Numbered from the stretch's first letter, positions 9,559 to 14,582 are shown. The stretch is 64,000 nucleotides of DNA from an uncultured Muribaculaceae bacterium (GCA_964629735.1 CAZVQX010000002.1:5493-69492), one strand, 5' to 3'. Numbers and translations: made by a program. Notes: generated from the letters alone by a model not told the origin.

Positions 9559-10221
9559 CTAATTAAAATTCTGATTATTAACCTTCTCATTGCTATCAAA
9601 TAATTTATTTACTTTAATATATCGCTTTTTAAATTCTTCTTTATTAGATAACAGTTTTACAACATCCTCTAAAAATTGATAATAATCATTATCTGGAAAG
9701 TACATTTTATCTACGGCATATCCACCTTTACCAAATTTGTCTTTAATATGATTCATTGATTCTTCAATCATTTCATCTAAACTTAAATTAGGATGATGGT
9801 TTTTTATATAATTATATGTCCGGGTTAAAATAACATCTATTAAAGTGTTGCGATCAGCTGATGAAACAATTTTACCATATATACTTCTTGGTTCTCTATT
9901 AGATGACGCTCGATGATCTTCTATTGCCTCTTTCATAATTAACATCTCTTCCTCACTAAAAAAAGAAGATAAATTTTTATCATTGTATAATATTCTAGCA
10001 GACACTAACTCATGTGTTTTAGCATCTATATGATGACCACAATCATGATACGCAGCAATGGTATATACCATATTAAAATTAATATTTTGCACGGTTGATG
10101 CAAAACCAATACTTCTTTTTATAACATAATCAATATGGTCAATACTATGAGCCTCATCATTTTTCATATACAGAGGTAAAACTTTTTTTTCAATATATTC
10201 TTTTATTTTACTATCTATCAT
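9559..10221 (-). CDS. HD-domain metal-dependent phosphohydrolase
   Basis: H..H...HD...H...D motif set: AHSIDHIDYV, AAYHDCGHHID, EDHRASS, SADR. 220 aa. Last gene of a four-gene co-directional cluster. Confidence 0.7.
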   Translation of the reverse strand: MIDSKIKEYIEKKVLPLYMKNDEAHSIDHIDYVIKRSIGFASTVQNINFNMVYTIAAYHDCGHHIDAKTHELVSARILYNDKNLSSFFSEEEMLIMKEAIEDHRASSNREPRSIYGKIVSSADRNTLIDVILTRTYNYIKNHHPNLSLDEMIEESMNHIKDKFGKGGYAVDKMYFPDNDYYQFLEDVVKLLSNKEEFKKRYIKVNKLFDSNEKVNNQNFN

Positions 10222-10252
10222 TTAATCACATTCCTATATATCTAATATTAGT

Positions 10253-12175: not shown

Positions 12176-13767
12176 AACATTATTGAATTATCAAAATGAG
12201 TATACCATAGCGGTCGATAGCACTCCCATGATTGTGGACGACATTTTTTATCTGAGTATATTTTTTCTATATATTTTCTTAAAATTAGATAATACTCTAG
12301 GTCAACAGCTTTTTCATTTAAGATTTTCATATCTTTTTTACTATGTATTTGATATATATTAAAAGTTGGGAAATGTTTGGTTATATCTTTAAAATCAATG
12401 ATAAAATTAATAATATCATCAATCGGATCTAAACCTAATACAAATAAATAATTAGTAGTAATTCCAATACTATTACAGTATTTAATTGCTTCTTTATAAT
12501 CAATAATTGTCACTTTTCTTTTTATTTTGTGCAAAATCTGTTCACGATTATTTATACATTCTACTGTAAAACTAATCATTAAATTATCAATTTTTGTTTT
12601 TACTTTTTTGAGATCCTCTTTATCAATTAATTGAGAGCCTATATAGTGAATTACACCATTAAATCCTAATTTTTCACTAACTGCTTTTATTAATAATAAA
12701 TGATTTATTAGTGATACAGAATTTTCAAAACAACCCGTACAAATTGTAATATATTCTAAATCATCCATACTTTCGTTATTTATTATTTTTTTGAAATAAT
12801 TTGTTAACGATTCTTCGTCTTCTAGTATAATTTCTTCATTATTTACAATAAGATTATTCGGACAAAATAAGCAACCAAAACAATTACTTCTTTGATTAGA
12901 ATTAATTGTTAAAGATTTATTATTATTTCTAAAATAACTAGATGAACAATCATCATTTTCTAATTCGTTGAGCTCACCAATTTCTAATTTATCAAAATAA
13001 ATTCTATTGCCTTCTTCTATAAAGACAGAATTAGGATTATTATACAAACCTAATTTAAACAATTTAGGATAATCATTAAATTTTAATTCAAACCTAACTC
13101 TTGTTGTATTTACACTACTAGTATTAATACCAATCATATTTAAGTAAATTAAGATTATATCATAAAGATGAACATCATATTTTTTACTAATTTTTAGTAA
13201 CTCATCATAACTATATATAATATTTTGAAAATCATATAATTGAATTGCTTTTTCCATTATCTTATTTATAAAATCTCTTTTTTTATTAGTATAAGCTTTT
13301 CTATCTAATTCATTAGATTGTACGATTTTAACTTTTATTTCTTCATATTCTTTTGCCATGCTAAAATGCGTATTTAAATAATCGCGAAAATAAATTGATT
13401 CTTTATAACGAAGACTGTTTTTTTCAACAATATGAATGTAATGAGTTCGATTATTCTCTGGCCCTTTTCTAAGTAAATACTCCCCCTTTACACCATTATC
13501 ATCGCGAAAATCATAATCTTCTAATTTTTCAAAAATGGGAATAAACTGGCGGGCATCATCTAATTTATCAACCGTAATTAACATATCAATAATGGGTTTG
13601 GCTTTTATACCAATTATTGATGTACTACCAATATGTTCAATCTCAACATCATGATCGTTTAAATATGTTTTTAGTAATTTTTTTTCTTTTAAAAATTCTT
13701 TTTCCCATATTGGATTATAATCGTCTAACCTTACTTCATTTTTAGATAAACCTATTATTTTTTTCAT
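12172..13767 (-). CDS. GrpB (UPF0157) nucleotidyltransferase-fold domain fused to an uncharacterized C-terminal domain of about 360 aa with a CxxCxxC triad
   Basis: N-terminal 170 aa: IEHIGSTSIIGIKAKPIIDMLITV...HYIHIV...YFRDYL matches the GrpB family. The C-terminal part has NCFGCLFCPNN and ICTGCFENS but no recognizable family. There are 4-nt overlaps with both neighbouring genes. Confidence 0.6.
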   Translation of the reverse strand: MKKIIGLSKNEVRLDDYNPIWEKEFLKEKKLLKTYLNDHDVEIEHIGSTSIIGIKAKPIIDMLITVDKLDDARQFIPIFEKLEDYDFRDDNGVKGEYLLRKGPENNRTHYIHIVEKNSLRYKESIYFRDYLNTHFSMAKEYEEIKVKIVQSNELDRKAYTNKKRDFINKIMEKAIQLYDFQNIIYSYDELLKISKKYDVHLYDIILIYLNMIGINTSSVNTTRVRFELKFNDYPKLFKLGLYNNPNSVFIEEGNRIYFDKLEIGELNELENDDCSSSYFRNNNKSLTINSNQRSNCFGCLFCPNNLIVNNEEIILEDEESLTNYFKKIINNESMDDLEYITICTGCFENSVSLINHLLLIKAVSEKLGFNGVIHYIGSQLIDKEDLKKVKTKIDNLMISFTVECINNREQILHKIKRKVTIIDYKEAIKYCNSIGITTNYLFVLGLDPIDDIINFIIDFKDITKHFPTFNIYQIHSKKDMKILNEKAVDLEYYLILRKYIEKIYSDKKCRPQSWECYRPLWYTHFDNSIML

Positions 13768-14582
13768 TTGTTCCTCCTCATAATTAATTTTTTTATTTCT
13801 TCTTCAGGAATATTAACTCCAAAAAAATTGTTGCTTTCATAATTGTGAAAATCACTACCACCAGTCATTATTAATTTGTGACGAATACATATTTCTCTTA
13901 ACGCTTGTAACTCTTTTTTGGTGTGATATCGATAATAAACCTCTACTCCACCTGCACCTTGATTTTTTATTTTGATAATTTCATTTTCTATATTATTATC
14001 TTTAGCTAAACCAGAAAAAAACGGATGGGCAATCACTGCTACTCCACCGGCGGCTTTTATTATATTAATAGCTTCAGTTATACTATATTTGTTAATTGGT
14101 ATATAATAATGGGCTTTTTTACCTATGTATTTATCGTAAGCCTCTACTACTTGTGATACATAACCGTTAGCTATCATGGTTTTAACAATACTTTTTTTAT
14201 CAACAATTCCATCATGACTATTATTTTTTACTTCGTCTAAACTAATAAAAATACCATTATTATTTAATAATTCAATAACTTTATTACATATATCTATATT
14301 ACTCTCACGTAATTTTAACATTTTACCCTCAATTTTATCAATGTCTTTTATATTATAACCTAAAATATGTAATTTCCGATAATCGGTCGTTATTTCAATT
14401 GCTGGTATAATGTTTAATTTTAATTCTTCGGCCAATTTTTGATATTGATTATAGCCAATAATAGTATCATGATCAGTTATTGCTAGATTAATTATACCTA
14501 ATTGCTGACAAGTTGTTATAATTGTTTCTGGCTCTAAATCGCCATCCGAATAGGTACTGTGAATGTGAAAGTCTACTTTCAT
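13764..14582 (-). CDS. PHP-domain phosphoesterase (TrpH/YciV RNase AM-like)
   Basis: MKVDFHIHSTYSDGDLEPETII...AITDHDTIIGY...LHILGYN...IAHPF. Strong AGGAGG SD 8 nt upstream. First gene of the cluster. Confidence 0.75.
   Translation of the reverse strand: MKVDFHIHSTYSDGDLEPETIITTCQQLGIINLAITDHDTIIGYNQYQKLAEELKLNIIPAIEITTDYRKLHILGYNIKDIDKIEGKMLKLRESNIDICNKVIELLNNNGIFISLDEVKNNSHDGIVDKKSIVKTMIANGYVSQVVEAYDKYIGKKAHYYIPINKYSITEAINIIKAAGGVAVIAHPFFSGLAKDNNIENEIIKIKNQGAGGVEVYYRYHTKKELQALREICIRHKLIMTGGSDFHNYESNNFFGVNIPEEEIKKLIMRRNK

What the first reader, a model, noticed from the sequence alone, without database searches (positions are those of the whole stretch)
9559..14582. Tight four-gene operon: PHP phosphoesterase, GrpB-fusion, truncated phosphoketolase paralog, HD hydrolase
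Four co-directional genes share one unit: two ATGA-type 4-nt overlaps, a 31-nt gap and a strong SD only on the first gene. The unit is closed by a bidirectional terminator and opened by a divergent promoter region. The products are an RNase AM/TrpH-like PHP phosphoesterase, a GrpB nucleotidyltransferase-fold domain fused to an unknown Cys-containing domain, a TPP-dependent phosphoketolase homologue missing its C-terminal third and carrying an active-site substitution, and an HD phosphohydrolase. I know of no described pathway or defence system that combines a nucleotidyltransferase-like protein, a TPP enzyme and two different metal-dependent phosphohydrolases. The block also looks more AT-rich by eye than the housekeeping genes around it (about 18-22% GC versus about 28%), which would fit an acquired accessory module. 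A UDG-like gene and a metallophosphoesterase gene lie immediately next to it. It may process a nucleotide-linked sugar-phosphate or act as a nucleotide-targeting system.
Basis: partly seen in the sequence, partly recalled or inferred. Interest (0 to 1): 0.75.

Follow-up and report, generated by a model that had tools for sequence, protein, structure and literature searches.

The report
Uncharacterised radical-SAM plus phosphoketolase-like gene cassette
The four genes are a real operon and a compact copy of a widespread but unstudied gene cassette, also carried on Clostridium perfringens enterotoxin plasmids and in many antibiotic-producing actinomycetes; it pairs a new kind of radical-SAM enzyme with an altered phosphoketolase and probably makes an unknown small molecule.

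Summary
Four minus-strand genes (14582..9559) form one unit with two ATGA overlaps, a 31-nt gap and a terminator.

Corrections:
- The 'unknown Cys domain' fused to GrpB is a new, sharply delimited radical-SAM-fold family (rSAM*). It has an invariant CX2CX2C motif and an N-terminal domain with no PDB fold match.
- The phosphoketolase-like protein (XFPL) does not lack its C-terminal third. It is a compact member of a distinct clade in which the near-invariant active-site His142 is Glu.
- The GC dip is small (23.8% against 26.3%).
- The UDG and metallophosphoesterase neighbours are not conserved.

The decisive test was met. In 80 loci from different genomes, rSAM* has XFPL beside it on the same strand in 68 and a ComDE/Ppd-like ThDP decarboxylase in 3. 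GrpB and PHP recur. HAD stands where this operon has HD. Fusions (GrpB::rSAM*, XFPL::PHP, GrpB::His_Phos) tie the parts together.

Larger versions carry ACP, adenylation, BtrH-like, methyltransferase, glycosyltransferase, NUDIX and exporter genes. One sits on cpe/cpb2 plasmids.

Best reading: a mobile biosynthetic cassette that remodels a phosphorylated, probably nucleotide-linked, sugar-type precursor. The defence reading has no support. I found no description of it. The function is inferred, not shown.

The parts
14679..14708 (-). Promoter-like site (TTCATA-18 nt-TATAAT) in the 121-nt spacer shared with the divergent UDG-like gene
   Evidence: 10 of 12 consensus matches. This is a consensus match only and has not been shown to function.
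13764..14582 (-). Gene 1: PHP-family phosphoesterase (272 aa) of the TrpH / 3',5'-nucleoside-bisphosphate phosphatase / RNase AM type. It is preceded by AGGAGGTGA.
   Evidence: Pfam PHP 1.2e-11. NCBIfam nside_bi_sphtase 2.7e-40 and RNase RNM 3.5e-39, both far below the equivalog cut-offs. Homologues sit in the same cassette in gut Bacilli loci.
13249..13734 (-). GrpB (nucleotidyltransferase-fold) domain of gene 2, residues 12-173 of the 531-aa fusion
   Evidence: PF04229, 1.1e-42. GrpB is a separate gene in the same cassette in other loci, and it is fused to a histidine phosphatase in L051.
12898..13233 (-). N-terminal accessory domain of the rSAM* module (two helices plus a beta-sheet; residues about 179-290 of the fusion)
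   Evidence: AF2 gives pLDDT 88. There is no PDB fold match: best Foldseek E 0.68, TM at most 0.27. It is conserved across the family.
12175..12897 (-). Radical-SAM-fold core of gene 2 (residues about 291-531)
12862..12882 (-). Invariant Cys triad C-F-G-C-L-F-C (CX2CX2C; Cys296/299/302 of the fusion), the presumed [4Fe-4S] ligands
   Evidence: It is invariant in 38 aligned family members. A second CTGCF motif lies about 45 residues downstream (Cys169 invariant, Cys166 at least 90%).
10253..12175 (-). Gene 3: phosphoketolase-family ThDP enzyme of a distinct clade (XFPL, 640 aa). Its start overlaps the stop of gene 2 (ATGA).
   Evidence: It lies next to rSAM* on the same strand in 68 of 80 genome loci.
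11813..11815 (-). Codon for Glu121 of XFPL, at the position of the catalytic-pocket His142 of Bifidobacterium XFP
   Evidence: Alignment to 3ai7. Glu is found in 71 of 72 rSAM*-linked XFPLs and in 119 of the 120 best database homologues. His142 is near-invariant in the family (PMC13455062).
9559..10221 (-). Gene 4: HD-domain phosphohydrolase (220 aa), 31 nt after gene 3
   Evidence: PF01966, 24.6 bits against a cut-off of 22. It has no homologue in other loci. A HAD hydrolase occupies the position directly after XFPL in L003 and L090.
9532..9549 (-). Terminator-like hairpin (CAATCC-loop-GGATTG) with T-runs on both strands. It closes the operon and the convergent tRNA-Cys/tRNA-Gly pair.
   Evidence: minus-strand site. 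Both T-runs can be read directly.

Best explanation
The four genes are one operon. It is a compact, fused version of a widespread, horizontally mobile and so far uncharacterised small-molecule cassette.

The anchor is a novel radical-SAM-fold enzyme (rSAM*). In about 9 of 10 loci it is partnered by a ThDP enzyme. Usually this is a dedicated phosphoketolase clade with His142 replaced by Glu (XFPL). In small-genome lineages it is a sulfopyruvate/phosphonopyruvate-decarboxylase-like enzyme. The pair is accompanied by a GrpB nucleotidyltransferase-fold protein and by interchangeable phosphohydrolases (PHP, HAD, HD, His_Phos, NUDIX).

Proposed mechanism (inferred):
1. The substrate is a phosphorylated, probably nucleotide-linked, sugar-type small molecule.
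2. The GrpB domain binds or nucleotidylates it.
3. rSAM* uses a [4Fe-4S] cluster on the CX2CX2C triad and SAM to start a radical rearrangement or oxidation that creates or exposes a carbonyl.
4. XFPL then carries out ThDP-dependent C-C cleavage or two-carbon transfer next to that carbonyl.
5. PHP and HD remove the phosphate or nucleotide handles.

The product would be a specialised metabolite. In larger clusters it is further acylated, methylated or glycosylated and then exported.

Shown: operon anatomy, domain and fold identities, motif conservation, co-occurrence and fusions.
Inferred: substrate class, order of steps, and biosynthetic rather than catabolic direction.
For: Operon anatomy.

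rSAM* family.
- Invariant CxGCxFC and CTGCF motifs.
- A confident model with a radical-SAM fold. The nearest structures act on small molecules or proteins (HydG, MqnE, LipA, PylB, NosL, ThiH).
- Only 380 clusters at 50% identity among 1.84 billion representatives.
- No sequence match in the PDB.

Co-occurrence.
- 174 genome loci were found.
- Of the 80 fetched, 68 have XFPL on the same strand within about 5 kb and 3 have a split ThDP decarboxylase.
- GrpB is present in 13 of the 80. PHP recurs in gut Bacilli, Paenibacillus and Clostridium loci.

Fusions.
- GrpB::rSAM*.
- XFPL::PHP, P0202.
- GrpB::His_Phos_1.

Non-orthologous displacement: HAD follows XFPL where the window has HD.

XFPL clade signature.
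- E142 in 71/72 and 119/120, and D153 in 117/120. H64, H97, H320, E479, Y501, N549, H553 and K605 are kept.
- Engineered H142N/S shifts phosphoketolases towards small non-phosphorylated substrates.

Biosynthetic contexts.
- Actinomycete cassette with enolase-superfamily, HAD, methyltransferase, creatininase, PhyH and Sua5/YrdC genes.
- Streptomyces loci with an ABC transporter gene and several NUDIX proteins.
- Dactylosporangium with thymidylate-synthase-like and further radical SAM genes.
- Eubacterium and C. beijerinckii with ACP, BtrH_N, glycosyltransferase, adenosine deaminase, deoxynucleoside kinase and carbamoyltransferase.
- C. perfringens cpe/cpb2 plasmid with ACPs, adenylation enzymes, BtrH_N, ABC-2 exporters and a methyltransferase.

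Mobility: 39 plasmids and a recombinase-bearing insert in spoIVA.
Against: - No product, substrate or activity is known for any member. Every mechanistic step is inference.
- The Cys triad is CX2CX2C, not the canonical CX3CX2C. Pfam Radical_SAM is below its cut-off. SAM cleavage is therefore not assured.
- The small gut-Bacilli versions, and this window, lack tailoring or export genes. In other loci they sit beside a LysR regulator, which fits a catabolic or salvage operon just as well.
- Some loci have rSAM* with GrpB and a phosphatase but no ThDP enzyme, so XFPL is not obligatory.
- HD is unique to this lineage.
- The link to nucleotides rests on the associated enzyme families, not on any direct evidence.
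Confidence: 0.55

Rival explanations
1. It is a catabolic or salvage operon. The cassette breaks down a phosphorylated sugar or nucleoside-derived compound, for example a SAM by-product such as 5'-deoxyadenosine or methylthioadenosine, or a diet- or host-derived compound. rSAM* makes it cleavable, XFPL converts a keto intermediate to acetyl phosphate for energy, and the phosphatases recycle phosphate.
For: - A LysR regulator lies directly upstream in the gut Bacilli versions.
- Those versions and the window contain only rSAM*, XFPL, GrpB and hydrolases, with no tailoring or export genes.
- Phosphoketolase chemistry normally yields acetyl phosphate, and the residues of the phosphate site (H64, Y501, N549) are kept.
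- The hosts have small, AT-rich genomes.
Against: - The same core is embedded in clusters with ACP, adenylation enzymes, a BtrH-like transferase, methyltransferases, dioxygenases, glycosyltransferase and carbamoyltransferase genes, and exporters.
- No uptake transporter, kinase or isomerase is part of the conserved set.
- The distribution is very patchy: 174 loci in a collection of 185,579 species genomes.
- It is carried on toxin and actinomycete plasmids.
Confidence: 0.22
2. It is an anti-phage or antagonistic nucleotide system. rSAM* modifies a nucleotide, in the way viperin makes chain terminators. GrpB and the phosphohydrolases make or trim the nucleotide product, which blocks phage or competitor replication.
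For: - Viperin is among the fold matches.
- Nucleotide-directed families recur around the core: TrpH-like PHP, NUDIX, HD, deoxynucleoside kinase and adenosine deaminase.
- One locus lies beside DpnI and DUF2726. Another lies beside an ADP-ribosyltransferase-toxin-like gene and a nucleoside phosphorylase.
- One copy rides on a recombinase element.
Against: - None of the four proteins hits PADLOC.
- There is no homologue in 50,697 phage records.
- The nearest folds are HydG, MqnE, LipA, PylB and NosL rather than viperin.
- A ThDP carbon-skeleton enzyme has no role in known nucleotide-based defence.
- Most contexts look like biosynthetic clusters.
- The defence-island neighbourhood is a single anecdote.
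Confidence: 0.1
3. The genes are unrelated housekeeping genes that happen to be adjacent, and the phosphoketolase-like gene is simply the organism's central Xfp.
For: - All four families are common and individually ordinary.
- The GC dip is small.
- The rest of the genome could not be inspected for a canonical xfp.
Against: - XFPL lies next to rSAM* in 68 of 80 loci across phyla.
- There are three kinds of gene fusion among the parts.
- The clade-specific E142/D153 signature sits at otherwise near-invariant positions.
- The NCBIfam phosphoketolase score is 365.5 against a cut-off of 777.
- Translational coupling is implied by the ATGA overlaps.
Confidence: 0.03

Closest known systems
Xylulose-5-P/fructose-6-P phosphoketolase (Xfp, ThDP-dependent; PDB 3ai7, 3ahc, 8io8)
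   Same: - All three XFP domains are detected.
- The GDGE...NGYK ThDP motif is present, as are Glu479, His64, His97, His320, Tyr501, Asn549, His553 and Lys605.
   Different: - It is 640 aa, against 796-845 aa for the solved phosphoketolases.
- It scores 365.5 bits against an NCBIfam cut-off of 777.
- His142 is Glu and Glu153 is Asp. Residues 547-548 are deleted in the pairwise alignment to 3ai7.
- It is always linked to rSAM*, not to sugar-catabolic genes.
[not shown]
   Same: - The Cys triad sits in a low-confidence stretch of the model just after a beta strand, with an aromatic residue before the third Cys.
   Different: - The motif is CX2CX2C, not CX3CX2C.
- There is no detectable sequence similarity to any solved protein.
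- An extra N-terminal domain of about 110 residues has no known fold.
- A conserved CTGCF motif is present.
- It is fused or linked to GrpB.
Oxetanocin OxsB/OxsA pair: a radical SAM enzyme and an HD phosphohydrolase that act together on deoxyadenosine phosphates (from my own knowledge, not tested here)
   Same: A radical-SAM-fold enzyme sits in one operon with an HD-domain phosphohydrolase, and the gene context is nucleotide-flavoured.
   Different: - OxsB is cobalamin-dependent. No B12-binding domain was detected here.
- No ThDP enzyme, PHP or GrpB is part of the oxetanocin system.
- HD is not conserved in this cassette.
ThDP-dependent two-carbon transfer steps in natural-product pathways, e.g. 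the transketolase-like AziC5/C6 and QncN/L with an ACP (from my own knowledge)
   Same: A ThDP enzyme of the transketolase/phosphoketolase superfamily is embedded in a biosynthetic cluster. ACP genes lie in the Clostridium and Eubacterium versions, directly upstream of XFPL in C. beijerinckii.
   Different: - Those systems use split transketolase or E1-like proteins, not the XFP family.
- They have no radical SAM partner.
- This window has no ACP.
Sulfopyruvate / phosphonopyruvate decarboxylase (ComDE, Ppd)
   Same: In the Saccharibacteria, Aenigmatarchaeota and 'Gammaproteobacteria' MAG loci, the ThDP partner of rSAM* is a split protein of this family (TIGR03845 8.1e-40, TIGR03297 5.3e-55).
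   Different: - The scores are below the equivalog cut-offs.
- No PEP mutase or coenzyme M genes lie nearby.
- This type is not present in the window, which has XFPL instead.

Membership tests
Radical SAM superfamily | Partial or full (beta/alpha) TIM-barrel radical-SAM core fold | tested here: met
   [not shown]
Radical SAM superfamily | Canonical CX3CX2C motif that ligates the [4Fe-4S] cluster | tested here: not met
   The invariant motif is CxGCxFC, i.e. CX2CX2C, in all 38 aligned members. It has three Cys with an aromatic residue before the third, but the first spacing is one residue short.
Radical SAM superfamily | Pfam PF04055 at or above its gathering score | tested here: not met
   The score is 24.3 bits against a cut-off of 29.5, E 4.1e-5. 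Most family members carry no precomputed Pfam hit at all.
Radical SAM superfamily | Reductive cleavage of SAM to a 5'-deoxyadenosyl radical | not testable with these tools
   This needs anaerobic reconstitution followed by detection of 5'-deoxyadenosine.
Phosphoketolase (Xfp, EC 4.1.2.9 / 4.1.2.22) | XFP_N, XFP and XFP_C domains with the ThDP-binding motif and the activating Glu479 | tested here: met
   Pfam gives 2.1e-59, 3.7e-26 and 3.1e-7. GDGE, NGYK and Glu479 are conserved.
Phosphoketolase (Xfp, EC 4.1.2.9 / 4.1.2.22) | The full set of active-site histidines: His64, His97, His142, His320, His553 | tested here: not met
   His142 is Glu in the window, in 71/72 linked homologues and in 119/120 of the best database homologues. 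The other four histidines are present.
Phosphoketolase (Xfp, EC 4.1.2.9 / 4.1.2.22) | NCBIfam phosphoketolase model at or above its curated cut-off | tested here: not met
   The best model, NF003616, scores 365.5 bits against a cut-off of 777. Five other phosphoketolase models are also far below their cut-offs.
TrpH / RNase AM / 3',5'-nucleoside bisphosphate phosphatase (PHP family) | PHP domain, and an equivalog-level match to NF041577 or NF047791 | tested here: inconclusive
   The PHP domain passes (45.6 bits against 26.4). The equivalog models score 138.3 against 400 and 134.7 against 375. It is the same subfamily region but not an equivalog.
GrpB (PF04229) | Full-length GrpB domain above the gathering score | tested here: met
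   146.3 bits against 25.5, covering model positions 2-159 of 159.
HD phosphohydrolase superfamily | HD domain above the gathering score, with the H...HD...D metal motif | tested here: met
   PF01966 scores 24.6 bits against 22. The His/Asp motif (AAYHDCGHH, SSADR) can be read in the translation. The margin is narrow.
Known anti-phage defence systems (PADLOC-DB v2) | Any of the four proteins matches a defence-system model | tested here: not met
   There are no hits for the four operon proteins. Only a weak hit (1.1e-4) was found, for the neighbouring metallophosphoesterase.
Cobalamin-dependent radical SAM / OxsB-like | N-terminal B12-binding domain | tested here: not met
   Pfam finds no B12-binding domain. 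The N-terminal domain has no PDB fold match.

The most novel reading that the evidence does not exclude
rSAM* (CX2CX2C, with a new N-terminal domain) and the Glu142 phosphoketolase clade together form a previously unrecognised two-enzyme radical/ThDP route. It builds the core of a new class of sugar- or nucleotide-derived metabolites. The same core would then underlie an unknown exported product encoded on Clostridium perfringens cpe/cpb2 enterotoxin plasmids, and products in the Mycobacterium avium complex, in many Streptomyces, in gut Bacilli and in CPR/DPANN organisms.
Probability: 0.45. Interest if true: 0.85.

Novelty: new variant of a known kind. Interest (0 to 1): 0.68.

Why it matters
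If the reading is right, the locus would matter in four ways.
- It would define a new radical SAM family with a non-canonical cluster motif.
- It would give a natural function to the phosphoketolase clade that carries Glu at the otherwise near-invariant His142. Protein engineers have found that changes at this position shift phosphoketolases towards small non-phosphorylated substrates.
- It would give GrpB, a family I found no functional study of apart from work on the CoaE-fused UPF0157 domain, its first pathway context.
- It would point to an unstudied metabolite gene cluster in the 'metabolic genes' variable region of C. perfringens enterotoxin plasmids and in M. avium complex genomes. Both are medically relevant.

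The compact four-gene version in this window is a convenient minimal system for reconstitution.

Tried and rejected
- PADLOC scan of the six proteins gave nothing for the operon.
- Rfam on the whole window and on the leader region found only the two tRNAs. There is no SAM or TPP riboswitch.
- tblastn of rSAM* against the phage collection gave no match.
- A profile search of rSAM* against PDB sequences gave no meaningful hit.
- The N-terminal domain was modelled separately and searched with Foldseek against the PDB. There was no match.
- The afdb50 fold library was unavailable.
- Six literature searches found no description of the cassette. They covered radical SAM plus phosphoketolase, phosphoketolase-like proteins, GrpB/UPF0157, CX2CX2C, and C. 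perfringens plasmid plus phosphoketolase.
- PDB 9cd3, the best phosphoketolase hit, at first looked like a natural His142 variant. It is an engineered mutant (H58W, H132S, I479V, S523N) and not a relative of the clade.
- I looked for the window's HD protein in other loci and compared it with the 219-aa gene after XFPL in L003. They are not homologous; that gene is a HAD.
- I considered that the split ThDP partner pointed to phosphonate or coenzyme M metabolism. I rejected this for lack of PEP mutase or com genes nearby.
- I considered compositional evidence for recent acquisition. It is too weak to use.
- My first regular-expression count of position 142 failed and was replaced by an alignment-based count.

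
Full report
**1. What is in the sequence**

The region 9559-14582 holds four minus-strand ORFs:

| Gene | Coordinates | Length |
|---|---|---|
| PHP protein | 14582..13764 | 272 aa |
| GrpB fusion | 13767..12172 | 531 aa |
| Phosphoketolase-like protein (XFPL) | 12175..10253 | 640 aa |
| HD protein | 10221..9559 | 220 aa |

- The sequence shows both ATGA start/stop overlaps and the 31-nt gap before the HD gene.
- AGGAGGTGA lies before gene 1.
- A hairpin at 9549..9532 has T-runs on both strands. It also closes the convergent tRNA-Cys/tRNA-Gly pair.
- A promoter-like TTCATA-18-TATAAT lies in the 121-nt spacer shared with a divergent UDG-like gene.
- No riboswitch or other Rfam element lies in the leader.

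**2. Composition**

- The operon is 23.8% GC against 26.3% for the window.
- Per gene the values are 27.7% (PHP), 23.4% (fusion), 21.7% (XFPL) and 26.4% (HD). Other genes average 26.6% with a standard deviation of 2.6%.
- GC3 is unremarkable, and 4.7% of 5-kb windows are as low.
- The dip is real but small. It is not the '18-22 vs 28%' estimated by eye, and it is not usable as evidence of acquisition.

**3. The proteins**

- Pfam confirms PHP, GrpB, XFP_N/XFP/(weak) XFP_C and HD.
- NCBIfam places the PHP protein near the TrpH-type 3',5'-nucleoside bisphosphate phosphatase and RNase RNM models, but far below their cut-offs.
- The 'unknown Cys domain' gives a sub-threshold Radical_SAM hit.
- Its family, here called rSAM*, was collected with the 354-aa C-terminal part. 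That search gave 82 proteins, either alone (about 355 aa) or fused to GrpB (about 525 aa).
- An alignment of 38 members shows an invariant CxGCxFC triad (CX2CX2C) and a CTGCF motif, together with ECFTRR and SWE[NC]YRPLWY signatures.
- The AlphaFold model is confident, with pLDDT 89.9.
- Foldseek matches lipoyl synthase, MgmA, SkfB, MqnE, PFL-activase and viperin.
- So the core has a radical-SAM barrel. Several of the closest enzymes (HydG, MqnE, PylB, NosL, ThiH) act on small molecules.
- The first 110 or so residues form a separate domain with no PDB fold match.
- At sequence level the family matches nothing in the PDB.
- It is sharply delimited: 380 clusters at 50% identity among 1.84 billion representative proteins.

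**4. The phosphoketolase-like protein**

- It aligns along its whole length with solved phosphoketolases. It is about 20% shorter, through scattered deletions and a reduced C-terminal domain. It does not lack a third.
- Mapped onto Bifidobacterium XFP numbering, it keeps His64, His97, His320, Glu479, Tyr501, Asn549, His553 and Lys605.
- It has Glu at 142 and Asp at 153. Residues 547-548 are deleted in the pairwise alignment.
- Glu142 is found in 71 of 72 rSAM*-linked homologues and in 119 of the 120 best database homologues. Asp153 is found in 117 of those 120.
- In the phosphoketolase family, His142 is near-invariant and Glu153 is present in 93% of sequences. Engineered H142N/H132S variants gain activity on small non-phosphorylated substrates.
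- XFPL scores 365.5 bits against the NCBIfam cut-off of 777.
- It is therefore a distinct clade with an altered substrate pocket, not an ordinary Xfp.

**5. Co-occurrence, the decisive test**

- A scan of one genome per species found 174 loci that encode an rSAM* relative, and 80 of them were fetched.
- They come from Streptomyces, Kitasatospora, Micromonosporaceae, Nocardia, Sorangium, Paenibacillus, gut 'uncultured Bacilli', Saccharibacteria and DPANN archaea. A member is also widespread in Mycobacterium avium complex assemblies.
- tblastn and ORF clustering show XFPL on the same strand within about 5 kb in 68 of the 80 loci.
- Three further loci have a split ThDP enzyme of the sulfopyruvate/phosphonopyruvate decarboxylase family instead.
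- Four of the remaining loci are on contigs that end too soon to tell.
- GrpB occurs in 13 of the 80 loci.

The architectures are:

| Lineage | Gene order |
|---|---|
| Gut Bacilli | LysR, then rSAM*-XFPL-PHP(367)-PHP(277)-GrpB-HAD |
| This window | PHP-GrpB::rSAM*-XFPL-HD |
| Actinomycetes, type 1 | rSAM*-XFPL-enolase superfamily-small protein-HAD-methyltransferase-creatininase-PhyH-Sua5/YrdC |
| Actinomycetes, type 2 | GGDEF-like-rSAM*-enolase-HAD-...-XFPL-methyltransferase |
| Small-genome lineages | rSAM*-split ThDP decarboxylase-methyltransferases-HAD or His_Phos |
| Without a ThDP enzyme | rSAM*-GrpB::His_Phos, or rSAM*-GrpB-His_Phos |

- Gene fusions tie the parts together: GrpB::rSAM*, XFPL::PHP and GrpB::His_Phos_1.
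- The window's HD has no homologue in any other locus.
- The slot directly after XFPL is filled by a HAD hydrolase in L003 and in C. beijerinckii. This is a non-orthologous displacement and supports a phosphatase role.
- The UDG-like and metallophosphoesterase neighbours are not conserved.

**6. Wider contexts**

- In Eubacterium and C. beijerinckii, the core sits among ACP, BtrH-like, glycosyltransferase, adenosine deaminase, deoxynucleoside kinase, carbamoyltransferase::PHP and ABC genes.
- In one Streptomyces group, an ABC transporter gene, several multi-NUDIX proteins and an ASCH::NUDIX protein lie upstream.
- Dactylosporangium adds thymidylate-synthase-like, TauD, PhyH and two further radical SAM genes.
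- rSAM* is on 39 plasmids and on no phage.
- Thirty of these are C. perfringens plasmids of about 70-75 kb.
- The one I inspected carries cpe, cpb2 and the tcp conjugation locus. Its cluster of about 20 kb runs PHP-ACP-...-ABC-2 transporters-BtrH_N-adenylate-forming enzyme-ACP-HAD-adenylation protein-rSAM*-XFPL(E142/D153)-PHP-methyltransferase.
- Reviews mention only 'metabolic genes' in the variable region of cpe plasmids. I found no functional study.
- In a Hadza gut contig, the cassette lies with a large serine recombinase inside a split spoIVA gene.

**7. Interpretation**

The evidence shows a conserved, mobile functional module.
- The recurring partners are a nucleotidyltransferase-fold protein and nucleotide- or phosphate-directed hydrolases (TrpH-like PHP, NUDIX, HD, HAD, His_Phos).
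- The two alternative ThDP partners both work next to a carbonyl.
- The large versions are rich in tailoring and export genes.

Together these make a biosynthetic cassette that acts on a phosphorylated, probably nucleotide-linked, sugar-type precursor the best-supported reading (confidence about 0.55). The order of steps (GrpB binding or activation, rSAM* radical step, XFPL C-C cleavage or C2 transfer, dephosphorylation) is inference.

The rivals are:
- A catabolic or salvage role, about 0.22. This fits the small LysR-linked versions.
- A nucleotide-based defence or antagonism role, about 0.10. It has no PADLOC support and only anecdotal neighbourhoods.
- Chance adjacency, about 0.03.

**8. 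Novelty**

- Every component belongs to a known superfamily, and gene clusters built around a radical SAM enzyme are a known kind.
- This particular pairing appears to be undescribed. That covers the rSAM* family itself (non-canonical motif, new accessory domain, no curated model) and the Glu142 phosphoketolase clade as its dedicated partner.
- The basis for 'undescribed' is that there is no specific NCBIfam or Pfam family and no literature in the searched library.
- I rate it a new variant of a known kind, with substantial interest because it is easy to test, widely distributed, and present on clinically relevant plasmids.

Noticed in passing
L094/L095 (NZ_CP075954.1, C. perfringens plasmid pCP721-84_1; cluster at about record 43069-63765): A 75,262-bp plasmid carries cpe, cpb2 and the tcp conjugation locus. 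It also holds a cluster of about 20 kb with PHP, two ACPs, ABC-2 transporters, BtrH_N, an adenylate-forming enzyme, an adenylation protein, HAD, rSAM*, a phosphoketolase-family protein (E142/D153), PHP and a methyltransferase. Thirty C. perfringens plasmids carry the rSAM* gene.
   Followed up: partly
L089 4759-16985: In a Hadza gut contig, the LysR-rSAM*-XFPL-PHP-PHP-GrpB-HAD cassette and a large serine recombinase lie between two fragments of spoIVA. This resembles a sporulation-excised ('skin'-like) intervening element.
   Followed up: no
L091 2252-5311 and L051 5340-6305: Two natural fusions occur: XFPL::PHP (1019 aa) and GrpB::His_Phos_1 (321 aa). They link the ThDP enzyme and GrpB physically to phosphatases.
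   Followed up: partly
L030 7269-11677 and L051 1515-8281: These are versions of the cassette without a ThDP enzyme (rSAM*-GrpB-histidine phosphatase). One lies next to a DpnI-family restriction enzyme and a DUF2726 protein. The other lies next to a nucleoside phosphorylase and an ADP-ribosyltransferase-toxin-like gene.
   Followed up: partly
window 9332-9486 (+): tRNA-Cys(GCA) and tRNA-Gly(GCC) converge on the operon and share its terminator hairpin. tRNA genes are frequent integration sites, but I saw no repeat or integrase nearby.
   Followed up: no
window 14704-15282 (+) and 15277-16104 (-): A family-4-like UDG gene and a YfcE-type metallophosphoesterase gene overlap tail to tail by 6 nt beside the operon. 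Neither is found near the cassette in any other genome.
   Followed up: yes
L001/L002 7288-16030 (Mycobacterium avium complex): An rSAM*-enolase-HAD-XFPL cluster lies beside divergent MFS-transporter and methyltransferase genes. The index lists its rSAM* protein in 135 blocks of the assembly collection, so it is common in the M. avium complex.
   Followed up: no
L083 14159-14605, L025 13467-13937: Two families of conserved proteins of about 150 aa (38 and 8 loci) have no Pfam or NCBIfam match. They sit inside the actinomycete cassettes between the enolase-like/HAD genes and XFPL.
   Followed up: partly
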